Virus genome (UHGV): UHGV-1366919
Length of the DNA stretch: 64,000 bases
DNA from: a virus
Reading direction: 5' to 3' (one strand)
This document shows, piece after piece, positions 2,742-62,504 of the stretch. Numbering within the stretch: position 1 is the first letter of the stretch; the number at the start of each line of letters is the position of its first letter. A model generated the notes under the pieces. The model was not told where the DNA came from and did no database searches. It worked only from the letters and a program-made list of their open reading frames with translations. Both the position numbers and the translations under genes were made by a program.

Positions 2742-2843
2742 GGGTGGCGGTAGTTCACCAAAACTACTGAACAATTTATCATAGACGCCAGAAAAGTTCA
2801 TGGAGATGAATATGATTATTCAAAATCAAAATATATTAATGCA

Positions 2844-3530: not shown

Positions 3531-3643
3531 TTTCAAGTACAACTATGATACGTTTTTATTAACAAATATTAAACTTTATCAAGAATTATAATAAAATTTA
3601 TTTTTCTTCTTATTATAAGAACTAGGTTAAATACTTATAATAA

Positions 3644-47168: not shown

Positions 47169-48200
47169 TTATTGTGAAACCAATTCACAATACATCATTC
47201 TCTTACCAATCATTTTGGTAATCGTATCTCCTATACATTCCATTACTTCAATCTTGGAGGTATTATGCCTATAGGAAAACTCATGGATATACCTCTTCAA
47301 ATGCTTAGGAGACATGTAATGGTAAACTCCATAATAACCTCTTTTCAGTAGAGACCAGAAGCTTTCAATGGAATTAGTATGAACCTCTCCATTGACGTAT
47401 TGTTTCCCCTTATGGTTGACAAACTCATGGACAAATCCGACAAGTCCTTTATAGGATTTGAACTCATCCGTAAACACATTGGAATTCCTCTCTACATGTT
47501 TTCCGATGAATCCTTGTAAATTGTAAGCGGATGTATCGTCGATATGTTTGACGATTACTTTTCCGTTTCTCTGTTTGGCTCCGATCACAATCAATTTACC
47601 TACTGAACCTCTTCCCTTGTTCAGCTTCTTGGAAAAGTGTTTGTTGGATTCCTTTCCTCCAATGAAGGTTTCATCTACTTCCACAATACCGTCCAACTTC
47701 TCCTTTTTATCTTTCATCCAAACTTCTCTGATCCTGTGACAGAGGAACCAGGCAGTCTTCTGAGTGATTCCAAGTTCTTTTGAAATCTGGATGGAGGAAA
47801 TGCCTTTTCTGGAAGTCGCCAACAGATACATACACATCAACCATTTGTGAAGAGGCAATTTGGATTCCTCTAAAATTGTACCAAATCTGACGCTGAAGAA
47901 CTTTCTACAATCTTTACAGCGATAAGGCATCGGTTTTTGATCCTTACATTCGGTGATATAATTGGAACCACAATGAGGACAACGGACATGACCATTCCAT
48001 CTTTTTAACTCAAAATATTTCCGGGCGGATTCCTCATTAGGAAATTTGGAGAAGAAGTCATAGAGAGAAGTGTATTTGAGCTTAGTTTTTCCCATATCAT
48101 CGCTTGGTTGATAGGGAAATTTTGTCGTGTTTTGATTGGTTCGTACGCGTTTATTTTCAGCGTATTGAGAATTATTTTTTATTACAATTTTCTTACCCAT
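47169..48200 (-). CDS. IS1595-family (ISXO2-like) DDE transposase
   Basis: N-terminal zinc-ribbon (CPHCGS...CKDCRKF), HTH, DDE core (DETFIGGK...). GC-richer than the host sequence. IS ends not resolved. Confidence 0.7.
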   Translation of the reverse strand: MGKKIVIKNNSQYAENKRVRTNQNTTKFPYQPSDDMGKTKLKYTSLYDFFSKFPNEESARKYFELKRWNGHVRCPHCGSNYITECKDQKPMPYRCKDCRKFFSVRFGTILEESKLPLHKWLMCMYLLATSRKGISSIQISKELGITQKTAWFLCHRIREVWMKDKKEKLDGIVEVDETFIGGKESNKHFSKKLNKGRGSVGKLIVIGAKQRNGKVIVKHIDDTSAYNLQGFIGKHVERNSNVFTDEFKSYKGLVGFVHEFVNHKGKQYVNGEVHTNSIESFWSLLKRGYYGVYHYMSPKHLKRYIHEFSYRHNTSKIEVMECIGDTITKMIGKRMMYCELVSQ

Positions 48201-48337
48201 ATTGGGCGAGTAGAAAATTGTTCTCAGAATTTAATGATATAAAAATTAATGGAGCTTTATTTAATAGTCATTAGGATAAACGTACACTTAGGCATGTGTC
48301 TGGACTATATGGAGAATGAGTAAAAATGGCTTGACTT

Positions 48338-48814
48338 TTGCTTTCTTCTTTTTCATCATATGGTATGCGTTTAAACGGCAATCAAATTTTTAATTTTACC
48401 GAACTAACAAGTATTATTGTTACCCTATCGAAGGAAATACAAAAACAATCTATTGAATCTAGTAAAATAGTTCAAAATGATAATATTGATTATTCAAAAT
48501 TCATTCAAAATTATTTGATGAATGACCCAAACCCTTCTTTATCAGAAGAACAATGTGATGAACTATTACGTCGTTTAAATTTACTTCATGATTTATTTAT
48601 AAATCAATATATTCACCATCCAACCTTGACTTTTGGATGGCGCTCCGTAGTCGTTTTAATGTCTTTTTGCCTAAGCGATACTTTTGAGAAAAGCACCATA
48701 ATAGAAGAAAATACATCTTTGATGGAAGAAGTCTGCAACACAAAAGATCCATTTTTTGAAAGATTGTGTAAACAATTCGGTATAACCAAAGGCAATTTTT
48801 ACCAAGAACCATAA
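48338..48814 (+). CDS. hypothetical protein
   Basis: 158 aa. Confidence 0.35.
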   Translation: MLSSFSSYGMRLNGNQIFNFTELTSIIVTLSKEIQKQSIESSKIVQNDNIDYSKFIQNYLMNDPNPSLSEEQCDELLRRLNLLHDLFINQYIHHPTLTFGWRSVVVLMSFCLSDTFEKSTIIEENTSLMEEVCNTKDPFFERLCKQFGITKGNFYQEP

Positions 48815-48867
48815 AACTACTTATCTTCAGTTCACTAAATTACAATATATAATTTTTTACCAATCTT

Positions 48868-49605
48868 ATGATAAAAATAAAATTGGCTGTTTTAGGGCAC
48901 TTGCCGTATCTAATTGATATTTCAAAAATAATAAAATGGAAATCTTGTTTATTTGAAATTGAAAGAGAAGTAGGAAAATATCCAATTACAACCGATTCAG
49001 ATGGTCCCGATTGGAGTTATAGTGATTCTAATCTTGTAAGTATTATTCCTCAAAGAAATAGTGAGGATATTTTGATTGTAATTACAAATGTTCCTCTAGA
49101 AGGTAATTATTTTGCAAGAAGATTTTCTGATAATAGAGTATGTTTGACCTATTATGAGATGGTAGATATATTGACAATATATAATATTTCACTAGAAAAT
49201 CTTATTCTAAGGGTTTTATATTCTATATCTATATTGTATAAAAGATATAGAAATCGTATTCCTACACGTCATGAACCAACGAATTTTGCTCATGATGAAA
49301 CAAGAGGATGTCTATATGACATGTGTGGTATTAAAACAGATATAATTCATTCTCTTAATAAACCGCAGTTATGTGATGATTGTGTTCATGATATAACTCA
49401 TAATGAAAATCCAAGGATCGATAGAAGTATTATTGATAAAGTTCAAATTGAGTTAAAGAAAATACATAAAGAAAGATATTATCAAATCTTGGATTTTGTA
49501 AAAAGAAGACCTGTTTTCACTCTTATTTTATCAACAATTATAACAATTGTTCTTGGTGCTGTCGGATCAGTTTTAGCGACAATATTATTAGAATATTGGA
49601 GGTGA
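48868..49605 (+). CDS. hypothetical protein with C-terminal TM anchor
   Basis: 245 aa; C-terminal LILSTIITIVLGAVGSVLATILL. Confidence 0.4.
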   Translation: MIKIKLAVLGHLPYLIDISKIIKWKSCLFEIEREVGKYPITTDSDGPDWSYSDSNLVSIIPQRNSEDILIVITNVPLEGNYFARRFSDNRVCLTYYEMVDILTIYNISLENLILRVLYSISILYKRYRNRIPTRHEPTNFAHDETRGCLYDMCGIKTDIIHSLNKPQLCDDCVHDITHNENPRIDRSIIDKVQIELKKIHKERYYQILDFVKRRPVFTLILSTIITIVLGAVGSVLATILLEYWR

Positions 49606-49707
49606 TCTGTTGGATGGTTAGTCAAGTATGTAGGTCCCATATTTTTGCCAAAGATAAATCTTTGTTACTGGAAACAACCACGTAGAGGTATATTACCGTA
49701 TGTTTCC

Positions 49708-49780
49708 TATTGCCATCGAGATTCGAACTCGAGATAGCCGGTAGAAAGCCGGCTGTGATAAACCACTTCACTATGGCAAC
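49708..49780 (-). tRNA. tRNA-Glu (anticodon TTC), U at position 37
   Basis: Manual cloverleaf: acceptor GTTGCCA/TGGCAAT, D-arm GTGA-AGTGGTTTA-TCAC, anticodon stem GCCGG/CCGGC with loop CTTTCTA, T-arm TCGAG-TTCGAAT-CTCGA. No encoded CCA. Confidence 0.6.
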
Positions 49781-49928
49781 ATATCAAGACTCAGCGGATT
49801 TGTTTTAAAAGAACAATGCTTAATGATTGCTGTTTGAGTCTTTCAAAGAATTTAAATCTTCTTATTAGAGAATTGTTGGAGTATTGGGCATTTACAATCC
49901 AATTTTTATAGCAACTGGCCTACCAGTC

Positions 49929-50147
49929 TCAGGATTTCTTACGAACAAGAAACTTACGCGATTCTCGGAGAGTTTTAAACTCATTCATCCTTTGCCGATT
50001 AAAATTGAGACGACGAAGACCCTCATCATACTGCTCCTCAAACGATTTTTCACTCTTAATTTCTTCCAGATTCTTAATCGTTTTTACGTCAAGCATCGTT
50101 CCAATTCGCATAATATTTCCTTTCGTATTTTCGTTATTACTTAACAA
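49929..50147 (-). CDS. hypothetical protein
   Basis: 72 aa; CACCT motif upstream at 50186-50195. Chosen over the overlapping plus-strand ORF 49884-50144. Confidence 0.3.
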   Translation of the reverse strand: MLSNNENTKGNIMRIGTMLDVKTIKNLEEIKSEKSFEEQYDEGLRRLNFNRQRMNEFKTLRESRKFLVRKKS

Positions 50148-50293
50148 CTTGTTACATTTTTATTATATTTTTTACCTTTATTTTTAAAGGTGATTTGAAA
50201 TATTGGAGCTGACAAGTAAGATTTGCACTTACAACTTCCTACTGGAATGCAGGACGACTTACTGCTTAAATCGATTGTCGCTTTAAAAAAACT

Positions 50294-50380
50294 TGGTACT
50301 ACCGGCGGGACTTGCACCCGCACGCTCTTACAAGCAACAAATTTTAAGTTTGCAATGTCTTCTAGTTCCATCACGGTAGC
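50294..50380 (-). tRNA. tRNA-Leu (anticodon TAA), type II with long variable arm, encoded CCA, non-canonical D/T loops
   Basis: Acceptor GCTACCG/CGGTAGT. Anticodon stem GCAAA/TTTGT with loop CTTAAAA. Variable arm TGCTTGTAAGAGCGT. T-arm GCGGG-TGCAAGT-CCCGC (G55). D-loop lacks GG. 3' ACCA. Confidence 0.5.
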
Positions 50381-50665
50381 TTATGCGCTAGACACATTAA
50401 TTATTAAGAATTACTCTTAATACCTGGAATCGAACCAAGAATATCCATTGTATAGGTTATTGCTGTATGTGTCTTACAATGACTAGACTCATTTTTTATT
50501 ATATACACCAATAATATTTTAATTTGCTGTACGAGTCTATAAAATCTTTATAACTAACTAAGCACCAAAGGTTTGACTCGAACAAGCAACTAACAACTAA
50601 CAACTAACGAGTAACGAGTTAACAGCTTGCCCCTCTACTATTGAGGTACTTTGGTATTCAATTAA

Positions 50666-50717
50666 TTATCTGATTTGAGGAAATCTTTATCTTTATTAAT
50701 TTCCTCAAATCAGATAA
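50666..50717. repeat. perfect 19-bp inverted repeat (hairpin) ttatctgatttgaggaaat / atttcctcaaatcagataa
   Basis: Exact reverse-complement arms separated by a 14-nt loop, in a ~1.2-kb intergenic region. Confidence 0.7.
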
Positions 50718-51014
50718 CTAATCAAAACTAGTTATTTGATTTATTACTTTGCATCAAAACAATTTTAATTCAATTATCCGTCCTTCACAGGATTGATTTT
50801 TTTTTTTGAATATTTCATTCGAAAAATTAGTTTCGCTCTTGGCTACTTATGCTCATCGCCGCGTAAAGGCTTTTTCGATGATGAACTGGTTGCAGCGGGC
50901 GGACATGCTCCGCTTAAGAGATGCTTATGAGACATCTGAGGCTACTAATACCTCTTTACTTTCCTGCTGCGATTTTCTGAGCAGTTTAAAATCTTGCTCA
51001 GGATTCTGAATTAT

Positions 51015-51134
51015 TTACTTACCTTTCTGAACCTTAATTACAGGAGGCTGATTAACAGTTTGTTGCTGTTGCTGAGAGCAAGAAGCTGTCAAACAAATTA
51101 CAGAAGCGGTAAGAAGAATTGCAATGTTTTTCAT
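51015..51134 (-). CDS. small lipoprotein-like ORF (39 aa)
   Basis: MKNIAILLTASVICLTASCSQQQQQTVNQPPVIKVQKGK. CACCT motif GAGCACCTAC at 51166-51175 about 35 nt upstream of the ATG. Confidence 0.3.
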   Translation of the reverse strand: MKNIAILLTASVICLTASCSQQQQQTVNQPPVIKVQKGK

Positions 51135-51177
51135 GATTTTATAATATTTTTTATCTTATTTTTTGTAGGTGCTCAAA

Positions 51178-51432
51178 TCAAATATATGAGTTTTGATATT
51201 TAATTGAATTGCGGAATTTTTTATCAGGATATTCTTTAATAAATCCTTCAGCAATTTTATCATCCCATATAGGTCTTTGACTAAATTTAGCACGAATATT
51301 GGGTTGATCCTTGGCCTTATATTCCCGATACCATTTTATATTGTTTCGAGTTTTATAAATCCAAAATGCTTTTCTGCTGTCAAGTTTATAACAAAACTTG
51401 TCCGGTATATTTTTTCTATATGATCTGCTCAT
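51178..51432 (-). CDS. hypothetical protein
   Basis: 84 aa. Confidence 0.3.
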   Translation of the reverse strand: MSRSYRKNIPDKFCYKLDSRKAFWIYKTRNNIKWYREYKAKDQPNIRAKFSQRPIWDDKIAEGFIKEYPDKKFRNSIKYQNSYI

Positions 51433-51450
51433 AACTTTCTAGGTACAAAC

Positions 51451-52578
51451 CTAGAAAGCATTACGATAATTATTGTTCATATTAAAGATGTCTGCAATAT
51501 TATGCTCAATATCAGTTGCTTGAACGCACTCAAGCAAAATATTTTCGTCCTTTATTTTATATACTAAACGATCAATTCCATTTTCAATGAGATCATTCGG
51601 ACCAAATACGATATGTTTCCATTCATAGTCATCATTAGAACCTTTTAACCGTTTAGCAATTCGAAGCGGATTAGTAGTAAACAAATTAATCGGTTCAGGA
51701 CTAATATCGGTTTTAGTTATATATTCAAACTTATTGCCTGCCTGGGGAATAACTTTAATTCTATAATTGCAAGGTCTAAATTCAATGTTAATATCATTGA
51801 TTATCTTATCTAGAGTTGTTTCGTAAAGATTACATTCTTCAGTAAGAGCCTGGAGAACATCAAAACTAAAGTTAAGAATAGATTTTGAAGTTTTTATAAA
51901 TTGAGAAATATTAGTATCAATTTGTACTTTCAAATTATCTTTAAGATATTCTTGAATTACTTCGGAAGAAAGTGAATCAAATTTAAAATGATAAAAGATT
52001 CTGCCAGGTCGGGAAAGGAAAAATTGATTAATCTTATAAAGATTATTACAAGAAAAAAGATAAAGATTCTTATTTTCATTTATCCCGTCCAAAAGACCGA
52101 GCAATCCAAATTGGTTTTCTTTTCCTGAATCCATTTCGCAATCATCTGTATTTTCATAGCTGAATTTATCAAATTCATCAAAAATACAAACAACTTTTTC
52201 GTCAATCTTTTTAATAAAATCAGAAAACTTATTTAGGTTAATTTTCTGATTAACAAGGATAACAGGAATATTATCCTCAATAGCTCTTTCAATACAAAGC
52301 TTAATCAAAAGGCTTTTTCCAGTTCCTTTCAGTCCGGACAATAGCACGCCGAGATTTTTATCCCTAGATTCATAAGTCTTAAAAATCCTTTGAACCTTAT
52401 TATTCAAATCTCTATAAATCTTCCTATTGTTGAAAATAAAATTATGTTCTTTTAAGAACATTTGTCCCTGAGGACCTGCATTTATTGTATAAATTTTAGC
52501 CGGGAGATTCTTTAAAATAGTAATACAGTTTTCAGAAAGAACATCAACTGTATCATTGTTAATGATATAATTAGACAT
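51451..52578 (-). CDS. AAA+ family ATPase
   Basis: Walker A GLKGTGKS, Walker B VVCIFDEFD. Confidence 0.55.
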   Translation of the reverse strand: MSNYIINNDTVDVLSENCITILKNLPAKIYTINAGPQGQMFLKEHNFIFNNRKIYRDLNNKVQRIFKTYESRDKNLGVLLSGLKGTGKSLLIKLCIERAIEDNIPVILVNQKINLNKFSDFIKKIDEKVVCIFDEFDKFSYENTDDCEMDSGKENQFGLLGLLDGINENKNLYLFSCNNLYKINQFFLSRPGRIFYHFKFDSLSSEVIQEYLKDNLKVQIDTNISQFIKTSKSILNFSFDVLQALTEECNLYETTLDKIINDINIEFRPCNYRIKVIPQAGNKFEYITKTDISPEPINLFTTNPLRIAKRLKGSNDDYEWKHIVFGPNDLIENGIDRLVYKIKDENILLECVQATDIEHNIADIFNMNNNYRNAF

Positions 52579-52996
52579 TATATTTTAGATAATAAGAATA
52601 ATAAAAAGATTTTTGGAATAAACAACCGCCTATTGCAGTTGAATGAGATACAAGCTCATAACCTTTTTTAATTAGAAAAGAAATAACTTCATTTAATATT
52701 TCCTCAAATATTTCTTTATCATGCTCTCTTTCATTTCGAAGAGTAAAGAATAAAAATTTAGGCCGTATAACATATTCCGGTAAAGAATAATCCTCAATAA
52801 TAAAATAACCGGTTTTAGGCAATTCTTTAGTATAGCGATCTATTTTCAGATCAATTTGATCAAGAATATATTCGAGACAATTAGACTTTTTAATTCTATA
52901 TTTCTCAATATCAAGAGCTACTTTAAATCGTTTCTTTTCTTCTTTAAGCCTTTGTTTAAGAAAAGTTTTATATTCATTTTTGTTAAACCAGCTCAT
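52571..52996 (-). CDS. hypothetical protein
   Basis: 141 aa; overlaps the ATPase start. Confidence 0.35.
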   Translation of the reverse strand: MSWFNKNEYKTFLKQRLKEEKKRFKVALDIEKYRIKKSNCLEYILDQIDLKIDRYTKELPKTGYFIIEDYSLPEYVIRPKFLFFTLRNEREHDKEIFEEILNEVISFLIKKGYELVSHSTAIGGCLFQKSFYYSYYLKYNV

Positions 52997-53300
52997 TGAT
53001 TGATGCTTCTTTATAAAAGTTAGAAAGGATAAGAGTTATAATGAAAGGTTCTCCTTTACTCAATTCAATGTCATATTCAATGCCATTATTATCTTCTTCC
53101 CAAATAATATGAAGCTCATCGTTAAACACAACTGTTTCAATATTTTTAATGAGCAGCATATTTTTTACCTTTTGAGTAAGGTCAAACATTGATCCGTCAA
53201 ATTCAATGATTTTTCCTCCCATAAGGGAATCTTTAATAATATCTTCATCCCCGTGAGATACATGAAGATAAGATGGAATTGAAACTGCAAAATTACTCAT
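52983..53300 (-). CDS. hypothetical protein
   Basis: 105 aa; CACCT motif at 53331-53340 about 40 nt upstream. Confidence 0.35.
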   Translation of the reverse strand: MSNFAVSIPSYLHVSHGDEDIIKDSLMGGKIIEFDGSMFDLTQKVKNMLLIKNIETVVFNDELHIIWEEDNNGIEYDIELSKGEPFIITLILSNFYKEASINELV

Positions 53301-53330
53301 AAAAATATTATGAGATAAATCTTATAACTC

Positions 53331-53340
53331 AAAGGTGTTT
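53331..53340 (-). promoter_or_regulatory. representative CACCT-core promoter-like motif (minus strand TTAAACACCTTTGAG) ~40 nt upstream of the ATG at 53300
   Basis: One of 15 or more similar sites. The others: 34313-34324, 35471-35480, 36889-36899, 37997-38007, 44661-44670, 45101-45110, 47163-47172, 50186-50195, 51166-51175, 55768-55777, 57537-57547, 59135-59144; plus-strand versions at 8115-8126 and 14694-14704. Confidence 0.45.
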
Positions 53341-53350
53341 AAGAAATAAA

Positions 53351-53425
53351 TGGAAGAGTTGCTGGGGTACGATCCCAGAATAGGAGAGTCAAAGTCTCCG
53401 GTGTTGCCAATTACACTACAACTCT
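53351..53425 (-). tRNA. tRNA-Gln (anticodon TTG), CCA encoded, T-loop ATCGTAC (54/58 swapped)
   Basis: Acceptor AGAGTTG/CAACTCT perfect. D-arm GTGT-AATTGGCA-ACAC. Anticodon stem GGAGA/TCTCC with loop CTTTGAC. T-stem CTGGG/CCCAG. 3' TCCA. Confidence 0.6.
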
Positions 53426-53431
53426 ATTTGT

Positions 53432-53506
53432 TGGAGGCTTCAATCGGTTATGCTCCGATGTTACCGGGTTACAAATCCGGGGTTTTACTGATTAAACTAT
53501 AAAGCC
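53432..53506 (-). tRNA. tRNA-like gene, probable tRNA-Thr (anticodon TGT) with atypical D-loop (no GG), T-loop AGCATAA and A31-C39 mismatch
   Basis: Acceptor GGCTTTA/TGAAGCC, D-stem GTTT/AAAC, anticodon loop TTTGTAA, T-stem ATCGG/CCGAT, encoded CCA. Packed 6 nt and 2 nt from the neighbouring tRNAs. Confidence 0.4.
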
Positions 53507-53508
53507 TT

Positions 53509-53582
53509 TGGTACTTTGTATCGAAATCGAATCGATGACTTCTGAGTGGAAATCAGATGTTTTACCACTAAACTAACAAAGC
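53509..53582 (-). tRNA. tRNA-Gly (anticodon TCC), CCA encoded
   Basis: All stems perfect: acceptor GCTTTGT/ACAAAGT, D GTTT/AAAC, anticodon TCTGA/TCAGA with loop TTTCCAC, T ATCGA-TTCGATT-TCGAT. Confidence 0.7.
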
Positions 53583-53606
53583 ATTAACAAGACACATTTT
53601 CTTTAT

Positions 53607-53662
53607 ACTCTACCAATTGAGCTAGCATCCTCTTCTCAAAGATGCCTAGGATTCGAACCCAG
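53607..53662 (-). other. tRNA-like halves in permuted order: 3' half (T-arm CTGGG-TTCGAAT-CCTAG + acceptor strand) directly followed by 5' half (acceptor GGATGCT + canonical D-arm GCTC-AATTGGTA-GAGT)
   Basis: The two acceptor strands are complementary (CTAGGCATC/GATGCTAG) and joined by an 11-nt loop. No complete cloverleaf in normal order can be drawn. Confidence 0.35.
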
Positions 53663-53794
53663 AACCGTTCATTTTTCATATGACTAAGATAATTGTTGTT
53701 AATGTCTTTTTTATGAGAAGACTTAGAGATATTAGTTTCATCTTTCCTGATTACTTATGTTCATTACCACGTAAAGGTTTCTCCATTAATGAAC

Positions 53795-53866
53795 TCGGGT
53801 ACCAGAGGGTCGAACTCTGTTAATCATGCTCCCAAAGCATGCCCATAACCGTCCTGGCCATACCCG
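53795..53866 (-). tRNA. tRNA-Pro (anticodon TGG)
   Basis: Acceptor CGGGTAT/GTACCCG. Anticodon stem CATGC/GCATG with loop TTTGGGA (G37). T-arm CAGAG-TTCGACC-CTCTG. No CCA encoded. Confidence 0.6.
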
Positions 53867-54374
53867 TTATACCGGTATTGTCGTCAACTTTCTCAGAAGT
53901 ACCGGACTCCTATAGCTTCAGCATACGATCAGCTAAACGATTATTTCTTAACCCATCGTTCTAACGGTAATCAGTTCCAGCTCGCTCTCTAACCGCTAAA
54001 CTGATAAGTCGCTAGTTAGGTAATTCTTTGTGACTAGCAAAGAAACACTATGTTCGATCTACATATTTACTCATCACTATCGAGTCAACGGACTAATAGG
54101 CTAAGAGTGGGATCTTCGTATTTTTAAAAATGTATTAATAATACGATCACTTTTAATAGTATGATCTCTATATACTTTTTCCTGCTTGAGTAAAATCTAA
54201 GATTTTACTCAAATAATATTCACTTGTTTGTGGATTTTTATTTACAATATATGTTCCTAATGGACAATTAGTAATAATATCTAATGATCCATTTTCTACT
54301 ACTCATAGATTATTATTATTTCGAATGAATTGAGACATTATGTTATTTTGTTTTTGTTTTTGTTTTTTAAAATT

Positions 54375-54452
54375 TGGTAAGCCTGGTCGGATTCGAACCG
54401 ACGATCTATCGATTATGAGTCGATTGCTTTAAAACCTCTAAGCTACAAGCCT
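54375..54452 (-). tRNA. tRNA-Met/Ile2 (anticodon CAT), CCA encoded; abuts the HNH gene stop
   Basis: Acceptor AGGCTTG/CAGGCTT (two G-U pairs). D GCTT/AAGC. Anticodon ATCGA/TCGAT with loop CTCATAA. T GTCGG-TTCGAAT-CCGAC. 3' ACCA. Confidence 0.65.
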
Positions 54453-54989
54453 TTATAAATTATATTGTGGATAATGTAATTCTAAATGACAATTAGAACA
54501 TAATAAATCACATTTATCAGCTTCTATTTGTAAAATATTAATAGGTTTAGAACTAAATGCACTAGCACTTAAACTAAAACATTTTTTAGTATTTTCTCTA
54601 TGGTGAAAAGATAAAACAGCTAAATTTTTATTATAACCACAAATTTGACATTTTCCACCTTTTTGAGATATAAAAAATAATTTTCTATTTTTATATCTAA
54701 GTTTAAATGATTTATAATCTTTTTTAAAATTACGAGAAGTATTTTTAATTTTAGACCTACAAGAAATTGAACAATATTTTTGTTGTAAACCTGTTAATAA
54801 ATTATTACAAACAATACAATAACGTTTAATTTTATTATTTCCTTGAAATACTGTTTTTAAATTATATTCTTTTAATCTATTTTTAACTGTCATAGGTGAA
54901 CATTTTAATTCTTTTGCAATTTTTCGTGTACTTAATTGCTTATTAATTAAATGTTCTAATTGTTCCTTAGAAATATTTGACTTACCCAT
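54453..54989 (-). CDS. HNH homing endonuclease with N-terminal HTH
   Basis: CQICGYNKNLAVLSFHHRENTKKC...CSNCHLELH HNH motif; extremely AT-rich; adjacent to a tRNA. Confidence 0.65.
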   Translation of the reverse strand: MGKSNISKEQLEHLINKQLSTRKIAKELKCSPMTVKNRLKEYNLKTVFQGNNKIKRYCIVCNNLLTGLQQKYCSISCRSKIKNTSRNFKKDYKSFKLRYKNRKLFFISQKGGKCQICGYNKNLAVLSFHHRENTKKCFSLSASAFSSKPINILQIEADKCDLLCSNCHLELHYPQYNL

Positions 54990-55765: not shown

Positions 55766-56611
55766 TCAGAAGGTGCCTGCAAAAAGCCTTCTTCGAATTG
55801 ACATTAAATCTTTTCCAAGATTATTTTCTCCAATCCCATTACAAACTCCAAAATAAGTATCTCCCCAGGTATTTTCTTCAATAAGAATTGATTCTCCTGT
55901 TCTCATTAATAGAGTTTTAAATGGTTCTTGCTTGAATTTTTCTTCACAAACTGCATACATAACCATATTTTTAATTCTATCCCAATCTTTTCGAAGGGGA
56001 ACAGTTTGACCTAATTTCCTAGCTTCTTTCGGAGACAATCCAATAAATTGGGCACGAATACCAAGATCTTCAGTCTTAAGAGCTTGATAAGCAGCTTCAG
56101 TAGAATTAAAAACCATTCCTTCCGCTATTATTTTAACTTCGGCAAAATTAGAAAGAAATTTAAAAATGCCTCTAAAATCAGCAATTATACGAGGATAAGA
56201 AAAGAAATATCCATTTGTTCCTTTAAAATTATTGGAATCAACAATATCCCAATATTTGTTATCATTAAAATTATAAACAAAAGCTTTTCCAAACAAAATT
56301 GGAGGAGGCTGATGAGAAATATTAGGCCTCCAAGCTTCCTGAAGAGTGACAGAATCAGCCCTATCTCTATAATAATAAGAAACAGAATTATCCTTTAAAT
56401 CGGAAGGAATCCATGAACCAGCGGCAAGTTTATGCGGACTTAACCTATGAATATTCCCATTTTTAATTAAAAGTTCTGGACAATCATTATAATGGCATAA
56501 AACATTTGATAAGAATTCCATATGATCAGAAGTTCTCATATCAAATAGAAACAATTCTAACCAAACTTCTTTAAGACTATCATAGATAAAAAGTTGAGTA
56601 GGATAATTCAT
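55766..56611 (-). CDS. NADAR (YbiA/DUF1768-like) domain protein
   Basis: C-terminal half FLSNFAEVKIIAEGMVFNSTEAAYQALKTED...WGDTYFGVCNGIGENNLGKDLMSIRRRL matches the NADAR/YbiA pattern. Confidence 0.5.
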   Translation of the reverse strand: MNYPTQLFIYDSLKEVWLELFLFDMRTSDHMEFLSNVLCHYNDCPELLIKNGNIHRLSPHKLAAGSWIPSDLKDNSVSYYYRDRADSVTLQEAWRPNISHQPPPILFGKAFVYNFNDNKYWDIVDSNNFKGTNGYFFSYPRIIADFRGIFKFLSNFAEVKIIAEGMVFNSTEAAYQALKTEDLGIRAQFIGLSPKEARKLGQTVPLRKDWDRIKNMVMYAVCEEKFKQEPFKTLLMRTGESILIEENTWGDTYFGVCNGIGENNLGKDLMSIRRRLFAGTF

Positions 56612-57499: not shown

Positions 57500-58612
57500 T
57501 TAGATGTTCATTAATTTATTATACACCTTGAAACCAATAGGTGTTTTGCGATAAATCATCCACAGTAGAGTTTGATTCAAGCTAGGATAAGTTTTCAATA
57601 ACTGAACTACTTCATGGGCATCTTCATAAATATTGATTTCTTTTAACCTTTTTTGACATTCTTTATAAGGAAGAACTACGAATTGTTCAAATTTTTTACA
57701 AACCTCAATCATATTAGGTTTAATATATTCTGCGATCTCATAGTCAAATTGTTTTTCTACAAACTCATAAAACTGCTTTTGAACTTGTTCAGCTTCAAAA
57801 GTTTCCGGATTGAGATAACCATGTTCATACATCGCTTCAGCTACTTTGAGTATAGAACTTAAGGTAGATTTCATCCGATGCAAAGTACAATACCAATCTG
57901 ATTTTATCTTTTTAAGAAGCTGTCCATTATTAAAATAAACAACAACTCCTTCAGCCGAAGTCCAGGATTTAATCTTTTCATTTAAATCAATGTAAGATTT
58001 AATATCCGGATATTCATATTGCCTTGGCCGTTTAAATTTATATGTATGAGCAATCGAGTTTAATTCTTTCTGAGTGGCATAAGAGTAATCTTTATGATTA
58101 ACCTTTCCAATCAGGAATAAATCAGGATTATCATACTTGAGAACAATCTGATTCGTTGGGGTTACCCATTCAAAAATCAAAGAAAAATCTGCAGTTTCGT
58201 AAGATTTAAAATATAATTCAATCTTGTACTGTTCCAATAAAGGATTAAGTTCGGAAGCATTTTTCTGTTGATATGCAGAAATAGTACCTCTGGTTCGAAC
58301 AATAAGTTTTCCTTTATATTTTGAAACAATCAGACATGAACCATCTAACTTTTCGGTTAGAACAAAATCTTTATCATAGTATGGTGCAACTGGTTCAAAA
58401 GCTGGCTGTTCATTAAAATTCATGAACTTTCTAAATCCCAATGAAACTGGGAATCCATCAGAAACCCGCCAAATAGAAGAACGATAAATCTTATTTAAAT
58501 CAGTAAATTTGGCAGAAATCAAAGGCGTAATCAGAACACAAAGGTCTCCAGCAATTTCTACTTCTTTAAAAGAAAATTCTTCTTCGGATTCTTTAAACCA
58601 CTGATACTTCAT
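57500..58612 (-). CDS. ATP-dependent RNA/DNA ligase family protein (Rnl-like)
   Basis: Motif I LTEKLDGSCLI (KxDG); AEGVVVYF...LKKIKS (motif IV/V). Confidence 0.55.
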   Translation of the reverse strand: MKYQWFKESEEEFSFKEVEIAGDLCVLITPLISAKFTDLNKIYRSSIWRVSDGFPVSLGFRKFMNFNEQPAFEPVAPYYDKDFVLTEKLDGSCLIVSKYKGKLIVRTRGTISAYQQKNASELNPLLEQYKIELYFKSYETADFSLIFEWVTPTNQIVLKYDNPDLFLIGKVNHKDYSYATQKELNSIAHTYKFKRPRQYEYPDIKSYIDLNEKIKSWTSAEGVVVYFNNGQLLKKIKSDWYCTLHRMKSTLSSILKVAEAMYEHGYLNPETFEAEQVQKQFYEFVEKQFDYEIAEYIKPNMIEVCKKFEQFVVLPYKECQKRLKEINIYEDAHEVVQLLKTYPSLNQTLLWMIYRKTPIGFKVYNKLMNI

Positions 58613-59333: not shown

Positions 59334-60434
59334 TCATTGACGTTCGGCTTTTAGGTTTTGGGGACTATATACTCCCAAATGGAGAATGTTAATAGCTGCA
59401 TTAATATCTGCATCCATCTCAGCTCCACAAGTCTTACAGTGATATACTTCACCTTGTCGACTTGACTTATTAACAGTATTACAAACGTGGCATCGTTGAG
59501 ATGTATAAGCAGGAGGAACTTTAATGAGTAAGAAACCTTCTTCTTCACTAAATCTACCTAACTTATTCATTACTTTAATGTAACTCCACCTTTGTAACTT
59601 GTTGTTAAACTTTTTGGAAAATTTTTTACCTCGTTTTACGTTCTTAAGATTCTCAACTATAATCTGCCCACAATCTTTATGCTCATTATAAAACTTTTTA
59701 ACGGTTCGGTTGATTGCTTGATCTCTTTCAATTAATGCACGTTTGAAAGCTTTAGACCGTTGTTTCTTACGAGAAATCTTTTCATAGATTCCTTCTAATT
59801 CTTTGCCGTAAACCTTTCCGTCACTACATGCGAGTAGTTTCTTGTAACCGCAATCGACACCAATCGGTCTACCATCATGCTTCGCTACTTCTTCTTTCTC
59901 CCAGTAAAGACATAACATTCCATTATCTCGAAGCATCATTGTTCGATTATTAAACTCGAATCCTTGATCTTTCAAACAGTTACAAGCATAATGAAACTTA
60001 ATAGGAATATTGAATGTAAGATAACGTGTTTTTGTTTTAAGATAAGGAGAAAAAATACGAATAAAATAATCAAACTCACCTTCCTCACATTTTTCAATAT
60101 CCCATAAATGGTAGTTAATATTAACTGAATGAGATTTGATTATAGGTTTAGTAAATGGTTTGTGACATTTTTTACCTTTATATTTTGCTAGTACCGAACG
60201 ATAAGTTTGTACTGCTTCACGATAACAATCAACTCTCCAGTTAGCATTTACTATATCATTAAGAATTGGTAACTCTTTACTCGAAAGATTAGTTTTAAGA
60301 GGCAGTTTCTTTTCGTAAATGAGGTCGATATATTTCTGTAGTAACCATTGATAATCAGATACTATCTTCTTATACAATACCTTTTTACCGGTATTGGCAA
60401 ACTTAATTGTATGTGAAGAAGTACGTAATATCAT
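59334..60434 (-). CDS. tnpB: TnpB (IS605 OrfB family)
   Basis: GVDCGYKKLLACS (RuvC-I), zinc finger CHVCN...CKTCG, DADINAAINI (RuvC-III). Confidence 0.8.
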   Translation of the reverse strand: MILRTSSHTIKFANTGKKVLYKKIVSDYQWLLQKYIDLIYEKKLPLKTNLSSKELPILNDIVNANWRVDCYREAVQTYRSVLAKYKGKKCHKPFTKPIIKSHSVNINYHLWDIEKCEEGEFDYFIRIFSPYLKTKTRYLTFNIPIKFHYACNCLKDQGFEFNNRTMMLRDNGMLCLYWEKEEVAKHDGRPIGVDCGYKKLLACSDGKVYGKELEGIYEKISRKKQRSKAFKRALIERDQAINRTVKKFYNEHKDCGQIIVENLKNVKRGKKFSKKFNNKLQRWSYIKVMNKLGRFSEEEGFLLIKVPPAYTSQRCHVCNTVNKSSRQGEVYHCKTCGAEMDADINAAINILHLGVYSPQNLKAERQ

Positions 60435-60565
60435 TATCTTATTTTATACGCAATTAAGTAAGGTAAAATTAGAACTTAAATATTTTTTAAGAAAAATGAA
60501 AGTTTTTATTATAAATTCATTTTATTTCTTTGAAACTAACGAATAATCAAAATGCTTTATCACAA

Positions 60566-61312
60566 TTAAAGCATAGAATCTTCTCGTCTGGGACAATATT
60601 GCTCATAATATGTCATTGAAAGTTCATTAAGACAAATACATTTACAATTTTTAAAATCAAAACTTTCATCTACATGATAATGTCCAAAGAACCAGAATTT
60701 TGGTTGGTAAATATCAAAGATCTTATTAATTATTAGCTGTTCTTCTTGAAGGTCATTACGCAAGTCAGCATCCTGCAAATACCAATAATCGAGGCGATTA
60801 TTAGAACACTTAGGAGGTAAGGGACCGCAATGGCTAAGAATACCATGAAGTCCTTTATTTTTAATAATATCTTTTTCAAGTTCATTATATTTGGGAAAAC
60901 TAATATTTTCATCAGCCCAGTAAGATCTTTCTATATCTCTAAAACATCTATCAATAGATGTCCCTCCTCCTATACACATGAAAAGATCATCATTTAATAG
61001 AAGCAGTTGATGATCTTTCAAATGAATAATATTCTCATATTCTTCATCAATTAAATCATCTTTCCAATGAGAAGGGTTGTCATGATTTCCTCGAAGCAAA
61101 TAAGCTTTACAATTAAGCTTTTTTAATTCATCATTAAGCCAGCCATAGTCAAAAGCATAATTATTATCATTAAAACCTACTCCAATATCTCCAAGAAGAA
61201 TCAAATGGGCATCAGCGATATTAAGATCTTTTATCTTTTCAACCAGCTGAAACTTTTTACCATGAATATCTCCAATGAGATAAATGTCACCTTCAATCTC
61301 AAGCATATTCAA
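60566..61312 (-). CDS. calcineurin-like metallophosphoesterase
   Basis: GDIHG, GDIGVG, LRGNHDNP motifs. Confidence 0.6.
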   Translation of the reverse strand: MNMLEIEGDIYLIGDIHGKKFQLVEKIKDLNIADAHLILLGDIGVGFNDNNYAFDYGWLNDELKKLNCKAYLLRGNHDNPSHWKDDLIDEEYENIIHLKDHQLLLLNDDLFMCIGGGTSIDRCFRDIERSYWADENISFPKYNELEKDIIKNKGLHGILSHCGPLPPKCSNNRLDYWYLQDADLRNDLQEEQLIINKIFDIYQPKFWFFGHYHVDESFDFKNCKCICLNELSMTYYEQYCPRREDSML

Positions 61313-62403: not shown

Positions 62404-62504
62404 ATTTTTTATTTTCTTCTTCTAGCTGTCTTTTGATAACTGGATCGCCTAGCCAGTATATAAAATATTCTTTATCATCCTGAGATTGAATCCAAAGATA
62501 CTCA

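What the first reader, a model, noticed from the sequence alone, without database searches (positions are those of the whole stretch)
53351..54452. Compact tRNA cluster with non-canonical tertiary-interaction nucleotides
Five minus-strand tRNAs (Gln-TTG, Thr-TGT-like, Gly-TCC, Pro-TGG, Met-CAT) lie within 1.1 kb, four with encoded CCA, separated by as little as 2-6 nt. Gln and the Thr-like gene have A54/T58 instead of T54/A58. The Thr-like gene and tRNA-Leu (50294-50380) lack G18/G19 and have G55, apparent covariation of the D-loop/T-loop contacts. Such tRNAs may escape standard detection and may be tailored to evade host anticodon nucleases.
Basis: seen in the sequence. Interest (0 to 1): 0.55.

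Follow-up and report, generated by a model that had tools for sequence, protein, structure and literature searches.

The report
Phage tRNA array with altered elbows
This is a tRNA gene array of a large uncultured phage in which several apparently working tRNAs carry matched changes at the D-loop/T-loop corner of the molecule; self-cleaving ribozymes and a tRNA-mimicking Y-RNA-like gene sit between the tRNA genes.

Summary
Five minus-strand tRNA genes (CAU, Pro-UGG, Gly-UCC, Thr-UGU, Gln-UUG) lie in 53351-54452. Four encode CCA, and two spacers are 2 and 6 nt. Gln has A54/U58. Thr has A54/G55/U58 and no GG in its D-loop. Leu-UAA (50294-50380) has G55 and no GG.

One correction: G18 becomes A, but a G that can pair with C56 is kept.

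These are not pseudogenes. Rfam's tRNA model accepts them. The Thr elbow is invariant in six phage tRNAs whose stems covary (16 of 21 pairs). The Leu has a compensated homologue. Among 681 independent phage tRNAs, all 8 with G55 lack GG (p about 1e-12). ARAGORN at default settings misses Thr and Leu, and a GenBank Aeromonas phage leaves its homologue unannotated.

Nuclease evasion has no support. The anticodons match the phage's favoured A-ending codons.

The gaps hold an HDV-like theta ribozyme at the CCA-less Pro 3' end. They also hold a permuted YrlA-like tRNA mimic framed by a widespread module, AGACNC-NN-ACAGCAA...GNGUCU. That module is linked to tRNA arrays and to a Ro60-like DUF2828 gene.

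Verdict: a known kind of locus with a new, conserved variant of tRNA architecture.

The parts
54375..54452 (-). tRNA with CAU anticodon (elongator Met or lysidine-type Ile2), CCA encoded
   Evidence: ARAGORN. Rfam 67.7 bits. No initiator-type C1:A72 mismatch and no GGG/CCC anticodon stem (read). In relatives L001 and L051 this slot holds Lys-UUU, Ile-UAU and a theta ribozyme instead.
53867..54127 (-). Conserved, G+C-richer (40-46%) non-coding block just 5' of tRNA-Pro; candidate structured RNA, function unknown
   Evidence: Composition. 92% conserved in L001, L051 and L052, and partly in L049. The few substitutions keep predicted pairs: one double change and three wobble changes. No Rfam match at E<=10. 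Fold z-score only -0.9.
53795..53866 (-). tRNA-Pro(UGG), no encoded CCA, weak D-arm
   Evidence: ARAGORN at default settings; not reported by Rfam at E<=10. Acceptor pair A6-U67 becomes G-C in L001. The L049 copy differs in sequence, keeps the same anticodon and has an A19-U56 type elbow.
53724..53794 (-). HDV-like (theta-type) ribozyme starting at the nucleotide after the Pro discriminator
   Evidence: P1 GUUCAUU/AAUGAAC is 7/7 paired, P2 is UGGAGA/UCUCUA, P3 is ACC/GGU and L3 is UUUACGU. P1, P2 and P4 covary in L001 and L049. The CCTYTACGYGG motif occurs three times on the minus strand of the array (a fourth, 1-mismatch, plus-strand match lies outside it) against 0.63 expected.
53588..53707 (-). 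YrlA-like (Y-RNA-like) permuted tRNA mimic. Order: frame, V hairpin (53669-53683), T-arm (53646-53662), acceptor-like hairpin (53625-53645), D-arm (53607-53622), frame. It ends 5 nt before tRNA-Gly.
   Evidence: Rfam YrlA 26 bits, E 0.028, below the gathering score of 69. The MFE fold gives this four-way junction. Compensatory changes in the T stem and acceptor-like hairpin against L001. Frame AGACAC..ACAGCAA...GUGUCUUG is intact in L001, L051 and L052.
53509..53582 (-). tRNA-Gly(UCC), canonical elbow, CCA encoded
   Evidence: ARAGORN. Rfam 69 bits. Compensated acceptor pair against L001.
53432..53506 (-). tRNA-Thr(UGU) with alternative elbow (A18 G19 / A54 G55 C56 U58), 4-nt variable loop, CCA encoded
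   Evidence: Rfam 49.7 bits. ARAGORN finds it only when relaxed. In a family of six phage tRNAs the D- and T-loops are identical, 96% of cells are paired, and 16 of 21 pairs change on both sides.
53351..53425 (-). tRNA-Gln(UUG) with A54/U58 swap, normal G18G19/U55C56, CCA encoded
   Evidence: ARAGORN. Rfam 53 bits with alignment. The same A54-U58 loops occur in Gly, Asn, Trp and Phe tRNAs of other phages. The L049 allele is canonical.
50294..50380 (-). tRNA-Leu(UAA), class II, G55 with an AG (no GG) D-loop, CCA encoded, intronless
   Evidence: Rfam 42.3 bits. ARAGORN relaxed. The L049 homologue has the same elbow, at least four compensated pairs and a group I intron. L001 and L052 carry a canonical intron-containing Leu at the same site.
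49708..49780 (-). tRNA-Glu(UUC), no CCA, U at position 37
   Evidence: Rfam 58.1 bits.
49640..49707 (-). Theta-type ribozyme 3' of tRNA-Glu; its P2 3' strand is cut off by an IS insertion
   Evidence: RF02682 33.2 bits, gathering score 44. P2 is 8 bp in L051 but 4 bp here. A perfect 25-bp inverted repeat begins at 49639.
50819..50886 (-). Third theta-type ribozyme
   Evidence: RF02682 21.6 bits. P1 is 7/7 paired and P2 is 8 bp. Conserved in L049.
50887..50970 (-). Undetected tRNA-like gene with a CUCAUAA loop, T-loop AGCAUGU, a 9-nt acceptor-to-D connector, ending ...ACCA at the ribozyme cleavage site
   Evidence: Read. The acceptor pair C-G becomes U-A in L049. Not called by ARAGORN or Rfam.
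43146..44630 (-). Ro60-like protein (DUF2828 + DUF7788), the probable protein partner of the Y-like RNAs
   Evidence: Pfam and PHROG 850 'RNA-binding protein'. AlphaFold2 model pLDDT 88. The top nine Foldseek PDB hits are all Ro60/TROVE, E about 1e-8 to 1e-7, TM about 0.46-0.58.

Best explanation
What it is. The interval is the upstream part of a roughly 4.8-kb, single-strand tRNA and small-RNA array (49640-54452, minus strand). It belongs to a large, A+T-rich, uncultured tailed phage that is about 96-99% identical, over the parts of the array that align, to IMG/VR contig UViG_3300045988_182131.

What the tRNAs do. CAU, Pro-UGG, Gly-UCC, Thr-UGU, Gln-UUG, Leu-UAA and Glu-UUC are most likely working decoders that supply the phage's favoured A-ending codons.

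The altered elbows. Three of the tRNAs carry an alternative corner built from matched swaps of tertiary partners. G18.U55 becomes A18.G55 in Thr and Leu. U54.A58 becomes A54.U58 in Thr and Gln. The outer G19-C56 pair is kept; this is the surface onto which RNase P, RNase Z, the CCA enzyme and the ribosome stack. The L-shape would therefore be preserved, while U54 and U55 are removed. These are the substrates of TrmA and TruB. The swaps are held by selection in a phage-borne lineage. The reason for that selection is not established.

Processing (inferred). The transcript would be cut by RNase P at each tRNA 5' end. Where CCA is not encoded (Pro, Glu), a cis HDV-like theta ribozyme would cut exactly after the discriminator. 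CCA addition and end healing would follow; the phage encodes Rnl1-like and DRB0094-type RNA ligases.

The mimic. RNase P cleavage at tRNA-Gly would also release the YrlA-like tRNA mimic. It probably works with the phage's Ro60-like protein.

Shown versus inferred. Shown: the genes, the loop identities, the covariation, conservation in relatives, the ribozyme helices and the Ro60-like fold. Inferred: aminoacylation, the geometry of the new tertiary pairs, ribozyme activity and Ro-like binding.
For: tRNA calls and scores.

Thr/Ile family with invariant D-loop AAUCAGUA and T-loop AGCAUAA: 96% of cells paired, 16 of 21 pairs changed on both sides, 0 of 500 shuffles reach the observed values, and slid controls collapse.

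Leu: the L049 homologue keeps the G55/AG elbow with compensated acceptor, anticodon, variable and T stems.

Strain-level compensation in Pro and Gly (Gln shows only a G-C to G.U wobble change), in the Y-like RNA and in the ribozyme.

Elbow statistics: all 8 tRNAs with G55 lack GG, against 17 of 673 others (p about 1e-12). The 54/58 pairs are U-A 659, G-G 9, A-U 4. U56 goes with a GA D-loop.

Codon match: CAA 71%, GAA 82%, GGA 43%, UUA 33%, ACA 30%, CCA 27% of their families.

Theta ribozymes: helices P1 to P3 with covariation, sited at tRNA 3' ends. The phage also has a DRB0094-type ligase, as reported for theta-ribozyme phages (PMC10879173).

Ro60-like fold.

Elbow anatomy, including stacking on G19-C56: PMC4810234.
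Against: - There are no expression, aminoacylation or modification data.
- The geometry of A18.G55 and A54.U58 is assumed, not modelled.
- Thr has an A31.C39 mismatch in its anticodon stem.
- Pro is not reported by Rfam at E<=10.
- Relatives carry canonical alleles of Thr, Gln and Leu at the same sites, so the variant elbow is dispensable for the phage type.
- One neighbour (Asn-GUU) is clearly decaying, so the array does tolerate dead genes.
- The host is unknown, so the host's own codon usage and tRNA supply could not be compared.
Confidence: 0.75

Rival explanations
1. Adaptive disguise. The altered elbow makes phage tRNAs poor substrates for host tRNA-targeting defence nucleases or other readers of the T-loop and elbow. 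Alternatively, it marks them for the phage's own Ro-like and ligase repair machinery. Either way they survive host tRNA depletion during infection.
For: - The exact Thr-type elbow pattern matched no tRNA in one genome for each of 185,579 bacterial and archaeal species, but was found in 7 viral contigs plus a cultured Aeromonas phage.
- Close relatives swap canonical and variant alleles of Thr, Gln and Leu at the same locus. Such turnover is expected in an arms race.
- The phage invests in RNA repair: two RNA ligases and a Ro60-like protein.
- Phage tRNAs are proposed to resist anticodon nucleases (PMC10264068; PMC11555353, listed in the search, not read).
Against: - No nuclease that reads positions 18, 54, 55 or 58 was identified.
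- The published evasion idea concerns the anticodon loop, and that paper mentions neither elbow nor D/T loops.
- The anticodon loops here are ordinary.
- Allele turnover can equally come from the homing endonucleases and intron in the array.
- The genome scan used one exact pattern, so it does not exclude related elbows in bacteria.
Confidence: 0.2
2. Decaying pseudogenes. The Thr-like and Leu genes, and the A54/U58 Gln, are dead copies drifting away from the tRNA consensus.
For: - ARAGORN at default settings rejects Thr and Leu.
- Thr has one anticodon-stem mismatch.
- The neighbouring Asn-GUU is a true pseudogene. It carries a repeat insertion and A18 with U55 in the window, and a T-loop deletion in L001.
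Against: - Rfam scores are 42-53 bits against a gathering score of 29.
- The loops are invariant while the stems change by compensation in six independent contigs.
- Leu is compensated in L049.
- CCA, U33 and a purine at position 37 are intact.
- G55 never occurs together with GG in 681 tRNAs, which is the opposite of random decay.
Confidence: 0.04
3. Non-decoding tRNA-like RNAs. The variant genes are not used in translation. They act as mimics or decoys, like the Y-like RNA beside them. They might be partners of the Ro60-like protein, or bait for tRNA-binding host factors.
For: - The array does contain tRNA mimics: the YrlA-like RNA at 53588-53707, a T-arm plus hairpin element at 50388-50474, and a conserved tRNA-like gene with a 6-nt loop at 50204-50281.
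- YrlA RNAs are known tRNA mimics (PMC4201824).
Against: - Thr, Leu and Gln have complete cloverleaves with 7-bp acceptor stems, a discriminator plus CCA, and 7-nt anticodon loops.
- Their anticodons match frequent codons.
- Relatives have ordinary tRNAs of the same anticodon at the same site, which argues for the same decoding job.
Confidence: 0.08

Closest known systems
Phage tRNA gene arrays (such as the tRNA clusters of T4, T5 and tRNA-rich jumbo phages) and the codon-supply explanation
   Same: tRNA genes are tightly packed on one strand, with spacers of a few nucleotides. Some encode CCA and some do not. Homing endonuclease genes sit inside the array. The anticodons read codons the phage favours.
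   Different: Several members carry covarying non-consensus elbow nucleotides. The array is also interleaved with ribozymes and tRNA mimics.
Theta ribozymes: minimal HDV-like ribozymes at the 3' ends of phage tRNAs (Kienbeck et al. 2024, PMC10879173)
   Same: The HDV-like helices P1, P2, P3 and P4 are present. The cleavage site falls at the nucleotide after the tRNA. The associated tRNAs (Pro, Glu) lack CCA. The genome has a DRB0094-family RNA ligase, as in 54.5% of theta-ribozyme phages.
   Different: All copies score below the gathering score of Rfam RF02682 (21.6-40.7 against 44). None sits next to a suppressor tRNA, and stop-codon use looks standard. One copy follows a tRNA-like gene that does encode ...CCA. 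One copy is truncated by an IS element. The exact sequences were not found in the paper's supplementary files that are held as text.
YrlA / bacterial Y RNAs with Ro60 (Rsr) (Chen et al. 2014, PMC4201824)
   Same: The modules come in the same order (V, T, acceptor-like stem-loop, D), closed by a basal stem. The T- and D-loops have the canonical sequences. The RNA is encoded on the same strand as a Ro60-like gene and near RNA-repair genes.
   Different: - The conserved 5' motif is AGACNC-NN-ACAGCAA, not GNCGAAN0-1G.
- The protein is Pfam DUF2828/DUF7788, not TROVE, and matches Ro60 only by fold.
- Rfam YrlA scores 26 against a gathering score of 69.
- The RNA sits inside a tRNA array, 5 nt upstream of a tRNA.
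- The same frame carries many other inserts, including anticodon-arm-like hairpins.
tRNA-Leu(UAA) group I intron
   Same: Relatives L001, L052 and L049 have a group I intron in the anticodon loop of tRNA-Leu(UAA) (RF00028, 45.8-55.8 bits).
   Different: The window's allele has no intron. Intron presence and elbow type are uncoupled: canonical with intron (L001, L052), variant with intron (L049), and variant without intron (window, L051).
Anticodon-loop changes proposed to let phage tRNAs resist anticodon nucleases (van den Berg et al. 2023, PMC10264068)
   Same: Phage tRNAs depart from the host-type consensus at conserved positions.
   Different: Here the changes are in the D-loop/T-loop corner, not the anticodon loop, and no cognate nuclease is known.

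Membership tests
tRNA (Rfam RF00005) | Cloverleaf that scores above the family's gathering score of 29 bits | tested here: met
   Gly 69, Met 67.7, Gln 53, Thr 49.7 and Leu 42.3 bits. Pro is the exception: it is not reported even at E<=10 and rests on ARAGORN plus a compensated acceptor pair.
tRNA (Rfam RF00005) | Consensus elbow nucleotides G18 G19 and U54 U55 C56 ... A58 | tested here: not met
   Thr has A18 G19 with A54 G55 C56 U58. Leu has A18 G19 with U54 G55 C56 A58. Gln has G18 G19 with A54 U55 C56 U58. Gly, Met, Pro and Glu meet the consensus.
tRNA (Rfam RF00005) | Stems maintained by compensatory change in homologues | tested here: met
   Thr/Ile family: 16 of 21 pairs changed on both sides and 96% of cells paired. 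Leu against L049. Pro and Gly against L001.
tRNA (Rfam RF00005) | 7-nt anticodon loop with U33 and a purine at 37; 3' CCA encoded or added | tested here: met
   Loops are CUUUGAC (Gln), UUUGUAA (Thr), CUUAAAA (Leu) and UUUCCAC (Gly). CCA is encoded in four of the five genes in the interval and in Leu. Glu has U37.
tRNA (Rfam RF00005) | Aminoacylation and use in translation | not testable with these tools
   Only indirect evidence: the anticodons match frequent codons.
Theta / HDV-like self-cleaving ribozyme | Nested double-pseudoknot helices P1, P2, P3 and P4 in HDV order | tested here: met
   P1 is 7/7 paired, P2 is 6-8 bp and P3 is 3 bp in the intact copies (the IS-cut window Glu copy keeps only 4 bp of P2), with covariation between copies. 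P4 is compensated in L001.
Theta / HDV-like self-cleaving ribozyme | Cleavage site within +/-5 nt of a tRNA 3' end | tested here: met
   The first ribozyme nucleotide is 53794, directly after the Pro discriminator at 53795. It is 49707 after the Glu discriminator at 49708.
Theta / HDV-like self-cleaving ribozyme | Catalytic cytosine at the start of J4/2 | tested here: inconclusive
   A C is present between P4 and the P2 3' strand in every copy (GAAAC... or GGCA/UAAA). Its register relative to P4 could not be fixed without the published descriptor.
Theta / HDV-like self-cleaving ribozyme | Score above the gathering score of the nearest Rfam model (RF02682, 44 bits) | tested here: not met
   33.2 and 21.6 bits in the window. 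The Pro copy is not reported. The best score in relatives is 40.7.
Theta / HDV-like self-cleaving ribozyme | Self-cleavage activity | not testable with these tools
   Needs in vitro transcription and a cleavage assay.
YrlA-type Y RNA | tRNA-like domain in the order V, T-arm, acceptor-like stem-loop, D-arm, closed by a basal stem | tested here: met
   Fold. Compensated T stem and acceptor-like hairpin against L001. Architecture as described in PMC4201824.
YrlA-type Y RNA | GNCGAAN0-1G motif near the 5' end | tested here: not met
   The 5' region is AGACAUUAACAACAA in the window and AGACACAAACAGCAA in relatives. There is no GNCGAA.
YrlA-type Y RNA | Rfam RF02553 gathering score (69 bits) | tested here: not met
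   26 bits, E 0.028.
YrlA-type Y RNA | Encoded within about 4 kb of a Ro60 orthologue on the same strand | tested here: inconclusive
   Same strand. The distance is 9 kb in the window, where a 4.6-kb IS-type element has been inserted, and about 4.2 kb in L051. Other copies of the frame lie 14-105 nt upstream of Ro-like genes in other phages.
YrlA-type Y RNA | Bound by the Ro60 protein | not testable with these tools
   Needs immunoprecipitation.
Ro60 / TROVE protein family (for ORF 43146-44630) | Ro60 fold: helical-repeat ring plus vWA domain | tested here: met
   AlphaFold2 model pLDDT 88.4. The top nine Foldseek PDB hits are all Ro60/TROVE over 510-580 aligned columns.
Ro60 / TROVE protein family (for ORF 43146-44630) | Sequence-level match to TROVE or to solved Ro60 chains | tested here: not met
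   Pfam gives DUF2828 and DUF7788 only. There is no PDB sequence match with the single protein or with a profile.

The most novel reading that the evidence does not exclude
Two linked readings remain open.

(1) The A18.G55 / A54.U58 elbow is a phage-specific, selected alternative tRNA architecture. It keeps the ribosome-facing and RNase P-facing G19-C56 surface but removes the T-loop identity read by host enzymes. This would give phage tRNAs that are partly orthogonal to host modification, surveillance or defence.

(2) The frame AGACNC-NN-ACAGCAA...GNGUCU is the RNA partner, or the cis leader, of the DUF2828 Ro60-like proteins found in 691 GenBank (INPHARED) phage records. On this reading it is an undescribed Y-RNA class. 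It carries anticodon-arm or whole-tRNA mimics and is co-transcribed with tRNA arrays. Together with the protein it would form a phage ribonucleoprotein for tRNA quality control or repair.
Probability: 0.2. Interest if true: 0.8.

Novelty: new variant of a known kind. Interest (0 to 1): 0.55.

Why it matters
G18, U54 and U55 are among the most conserved nucleotides in biology. tRNA finders, modification enzymes and structural models all assume them.

This locus shows a recurrent set of apparently working tRNAs, so far seen only in phages, that replaces them by matched swaps. It is a natural experiment on what the tRNA elbow really needs. It also suggests designs for orthogonal tRNAs.

There is a practical consequence: such genes are being missed in phage annotation. 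One cultured Aeromonas phage lacks the annotation.

The locus also ties together three RNA devices in one transcription unit: tRNAs, theta ribozymes and Y-RNA-like tRNA mimics. They sit near a Ro60-like protein and RNA ligases. This makes the function of phage Ro-like proteins testable in cultured phages such as Bacillus phage Tsamsa.

Tried and rejected
- GenBank phage search with the whole array: only a 78% match to the CAU tRNA, so no close cultured relative.
- Sequence searches of the Ro-like protein against PDB chains, both single sequence and profile: nothing. Only the fold search worked.
- The 260-nt block 53867-54127: no Rfam match and fold z-score -0.9. An IMG/VR pattern scan found only the source contig. 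Relatives are too similar for a covariation test. It is left unexplained.
- Idea that the frame starts at a sigma-70 promoter, prompted by one TTGACA-N17-TATAAT in phage Tsamsa: a -10-like box lies at the right distance in 11 of 116 copies against 13 of 116 in a control window, so rejected as a general rule.
- Host identification through the IS1595-family transposase: best plasmid match is 55% identical and the taxa are mixed. The host remains unknown.
- Literature searches for A54/U58, DUF2828 and the ACAGCAA motif gave nothing useful.
- My first cloverleaf string for the Thr family was one column out of register and gave poor pairing. It was corrected.
- MAFFT misaligned the two ribozyme subtypes, so the helices were parsed directly.
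- The idea that the T-arm followed by a D-arm at 53588-53707 is a remnant of two tandem tRNAs was rejected. The two 'acceptor' strands pair with each other, they covary, and the same frame and order recur in other phages.
Full report

ARAGORN at default settings calls six minus-strand tRNAs in the window. Four lie in the interval: Gln-ttg 53351-53425, Gly-tcc 53509-53582, Pro-tgg 53795-53866 and Met-cat 54375-54452.

Rfam's tRNA model (gathering score 29) also reports the Thr-like gene at 53435-53506 (49.7 bits) and Leu at 50297-50380 (42.3 bits). It does not report Pro even at E<=10. ARAGORN finds Thr-tgt and Leu-taa only with a lowered threshold.

Read directly from the sequence:
- CCA follows Met, Gly, Thr and Gln but not Pro.
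- The Gly-Thr spacer is 2 nt and the Thr-Gln spacer is 6 nt.
- The T-loops are AUCGUAC (Gln), AGCAUAA (Thr) and UGCAAGU (Leu).
- The D-loops of Thr (AAUCAGUA) and Leu (AACUAGAAGA) have no GG.

One correction applies. Both D-loops keep AG where GG normally sits, and both T-loops keep C56. The likely change is therefore G18 to A, with the G19-C56 pair retained.

**2. Pseudogenes or working genes?**

The D-arm of the Thr gene occurs in other IMG/VR contigs. Four carry a Thr-UGU and one an Ile-UAU with exactly the same D-loop and T-loop but different stems.

On the six-sequence alignment, 96% of cells are paired and 16 of 21 pairs change on both sides. None of 500 shuffles reaches the observed values, and sliding the partners by one column halves the pairing. 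The loops are frozen while the stems drift by compensation. That is selection, not decay.

The Leu gene has a homologue in L049, a relative whose neighbouring ATPase is 81% identical. It has the same AG/G55 elbow and compensated acceptor, anticodon, variable and T stems.

The window is 96-99% identical to L001. Between them, Pro and Gly each show a compensated acceptor pair, and Gln a G-C to G.U change.

The neighbouring Asn-GUU, by contrast, really is decaying. The window copy has a GUUAGUU repeat insertion and stem mismatches. The L001 copy has lost its T-loop.

**3. Is the D-loop/T-loop covariation more than an impression?**

I collected 120 phage loci by an unrelated RNA motif (section 6) and extracted 681 distinct tRNAs from them.
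- All 8 tRNAs with G55 lack GG, against 17 of 673 for the rest (Fisher p about 1e-12).
- Positions 54/58 are U-A in 659, G-G in 9 and A-U in 4.
- U56 goes with a GA D-loop, which implies an A19-U56 pair.

Such elbows are rare, about 1% of phage tRNAs, but they follow rules.

A scan of one genome for each of 185,579 bacterial and archaeal species with the Thr-type pattern gave 40 matches. None is a tRNA; the Pedobacter and Riemerella matches appear to lie in a conserved protein-coding region.

The same elbow is present in a cultured jumbo phage, Aeromonas phage phiWae14. There the gene is not annotated.

According to the elbow review PMC4810234:
- G19-C56 is the exposed platform onto which RNase P, RNase Z and the ribosome stack.
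- G18 intercalates and contacts position 55.
- 54-58 is a reverse Hoogsteen pair.

The variants keep the platform and swap the inner contacts. From established knowledge, A54 and G55 cannot be made into T54 and pseudouridine 55 by TrmA and TruB.

**4. What do the tRNAs do?**

The anticodons (UUG, UGU, UCC, UGG, UAA, UUC) read A-ending codons. In 61 ORFs of the window these are CAA 71%, GAA 82%, GGA 43%, UUA 33%, ACA 30% and CCA 27% of their families. This fits ordinary codon supply in a genome of 31.8% G+C.

Nothing bears on nucleases. The published evasion hypothesis concerns anticodon loops, and that paper does not mention the elbow or the D and T loops (PMC10264068).

One point could fit an arms race. 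Close relatives carry different alleles at the same sites:
- L049 has a Thr-UGU with an A19-U56 elbow and a canonical Gln.
- L001 and L052 have a canonical Leu-UAA split by a group I intron with an HNH ORF.
- L049 has the variant Leu with an intron.

This turnover can equally be explained by the homing endonucleases in the array.

**5. What fills the gaps?**

*Ribozymes.* Directly after the Pro discriminator begins an HDV-like ribozyme (53724-53794). Two more follow tRNA-Glu (49640-49707) and an undetected tRNA-like gene (50819-50886).

Rfam's nearest model scores them below threshold (33.2 and 21.6 against 44). However, P1 is fully paired in the intact copies, P2 is 6-8 bp, P3 is 3 bp, and all three covary between copies.

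This matches the theta ribozymes of gut phages, which sit at tRNA 3' ends. Only 4.5% of their tRNAs encode CCA, and 54.5% of their genomes have a DRB0094-family RNA ligase (PMC10879173). The window has such a ligase at 41705-42718 and an Rnl1-like ligase at 57500-58612. This explains why Pro lacks CCA.

*The tRNA mimic.* Between the Pro ribozyme and Gly lies a permuted tRNA-like RNA (53588-53707). It has a V hairpin, a T-arm, an acceptor-like hairpin and a D-arm, closed by a basal stem.
- Rfam YrlA gives a weak hit: 26 bits, E 0.028.
- The order is that described for YrlA (PMC4201824).
- The T stem and the acceptor-like hairpin carry compensatory changes in L001.

*The protein.* ORF 43146-44630 (DUF2828 + DUF7788; PHROG 'RNA-binding protein') folds with pLDDT 88. 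Its top nine PDB matches are all Ro60/TROVE. In the window it lies 9 kb from the mimic, because a 4.6-kb IS1595-type element with perfect 25-bp inverted repeats has been inserted between them. That insertion also cut the P2 3' strand of the Glu ribozyme.

**6. A recurring frame (followed only in part)**

The mimic is framed by AGACNC-NN-ACAGCAA ... GNGUCU(U/A)G. Three further copies lie in the window, at 50483-50538, 50388-50474 and 49785-49841.

In 131 of 139 matches the two N positions are Watson-Crick partners, where 25% is expected by chance.
- 36 of 118 distinct copies end 4-14 nt before a tRNA 5' end.
- 46 of the 120 loci hold a DUF2828 gene.
- All 57 frame/gene pairs are on the same strand.
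- The distances cluster 14-105 nt upstream of the start codon and about 100-170 nt past the stop.

Of five loci fetched by the protein alone, two have tandem copies just upstream of the gene. One of those copies has T, acceptor-like and D modules.

Bacillus phage Tsamsa has four copies in and after its tRNA array, the last about 90 nt upstream of its DUF2828 gene.

No Rfam family matches the frame. DUF2828 homologues occur in 691 GenBank phage records. A review of jumbo phages notes TROVE proteins with a tRNA-like partner (PMC7824862).

I read the frame as a Y-RNA-type partner, or a cis leader, of these Ro-like proteins. This is inference. A general sigma-70 promoter explanation was tested and rejected.

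**7. Verdict**

What is unusual is a conserved, covarying, apparently phage-restricted alternative elbow in tRNAs that look functional. They sit in an array that also carries theta ribozymes and a Y-RNA-like mimic.

The nuclease-evasion reading is unsupported. The selective reason for the elbow remains open.

Noticed in passing
window 53588-53707, 50483-50538, 50388-50474, 49785-49841 (minus strand); L179 (Bacillus phage Tsamsa) 719, 1361, 1939, 2328; L174 3163-3830: A recurring RNA frame, AGACNC-NN-ACAGCAA-[insert]-GNGUCU(U/A)G. The two N positions are Watson-Crick partners in 131 of 139 IMG/VR matches. The inserts are anticodon-arm-like hairpins, T-arms or a whole permuted tRNA mimic. The frame sits 4-14 nt before tRNA 5' ends and just upstream or downstream of DUF2828 Ro60-like genes. 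It is not in Rfam.
   Followed up: partly
window 43146-44630 (-): The DUF2828/DUF7788 protein is predicted to have the Ro60 (TROVE ring plus vWA) fold, although it has no sequence-level match to Ro60. Homologues occur in 691 GenBank phage records, usually annotated as hypothetical or 'RNA-binding protein'.
   Followed up: yes
window 45039-49639: A 4.6-kb element bounded by perfect 25-bp inverted repeats. It carries an IS1595-family transposase (47169-48200) and two other ORFs. It is inserted into the P2 3' strand of the theta ribozyme that follows tRNA-Glu and is absent from relatives L049 and L051.
   Followed up: partly
window 53867-54127 (-): A conserved 260-nt non-coding block with higher G+C, just upstream of tRNA-Pro. 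It has no Rfam match. The few substitutions in relatives keep the predicted pairs. Function unknown.
   Followed up: partly
window 50204-50281 (-); L001 13023-13097; L049 3862-3938: A conserved tRNA-like gene with a 6-bp 'anticodon' stem and a 6-nt loop (AUUCCA, or GCACCA in L049). It has a bulged A in the acceptor 3' strand, a G55 T-loop (UGCAAAU), a D-loop without GG, and an encoded CCA. One G.U to A-U change occurs in relatives. It cannot decode in the normal way.
   Followed up: partly
window 50887-50970 (-): A tRNA-like gene missed by both tRNA finders. It has a CUCAUAA anticodon loop, T-loop AGCAUGU (A54 G55 U58) and a 9-nt connector between the acceptor and D stems. It ends ...ACCA exactly at a theta-ribozyme cleavage site. 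An acceptor pair is compensated in L049.
   Followed up: partly
window 50562-50655 (-); L001 11921-11984: tRNA-Asn(GUU) is decaying in two different ways. The window copy has a GUUAGUU tandem-repeat insertion in the variable region, A18 with U55, and stem mismatches. The L001 copy has lost the T-loop. L049 has an unrelated canonical Asn at this site.
   Followed up: yes
L001 12150-13010; L052 9447-9717; L049 3483-3850: Three allelic states of tRNA-Leu(UAA) occur at one locus among close relatives: canonical elbow with a group I intron and an HNH ORF, variant elbow with an intron, and variant elbow without an intron (window, L051).
   Followed up: partly
window 54375-54989 against L001 8098-8333: A cassette difference between near-identical phages. 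The window has an HNH endonuclease plus a CAU tRNA, whereas L001 and L051 have Lys-UUU, Ile-UAU and a theta ribozyme. The CAU tRNA may therefore be a lysidine-type Ile2 that reads AUA (20% of Ile codons). This was not tested.
   Followed up: no
window 50656-50727 (-): A long, nearly perfect A+U-rich hairpin of about 28 bp directly upstream of the Asn pseudogene. It scores as a chance microRNA match in Rfam and is conserved in L051 and L052. It could be a terminator or an RNase III site.
   Followed up: no
window 44700-45030 (-); L049 4600-4900: A conserved, G+C-richer non-coding stretch of about 200-300 nt directly upstream of the Ro60-like gene in both the window and L049. It may be another structured RNA or a leader.
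   Followed up: no
window 49708-49780 (-): tRNA-Glu(UUC) has U at position 37 (loop CUUUCUA), where a purine is almost universal.
   Followed up: no
L006 1169-1245, L007 1758-1830, L049 90-161 and 324-400: A second elbow variant in phage tRNAs. U56 is paired with a GA (G18 A19) D-loop, which implies an A19-U56 Watson-Crick pair replacing G19-C56.
   Followed up: partly
window 38889-41199, 55766-56611, 1443-4906, 59334-63896: The neighbourhood encodes NAD+ salvage enzymes (NAMPT, NMNAT/Nudix), a NADAR protein, and at least four transposase-family ORFs (PHROG 506; a related ORF in L051 carries OrfB_IS605/Cas12f1-like domains).
   Followed up: no
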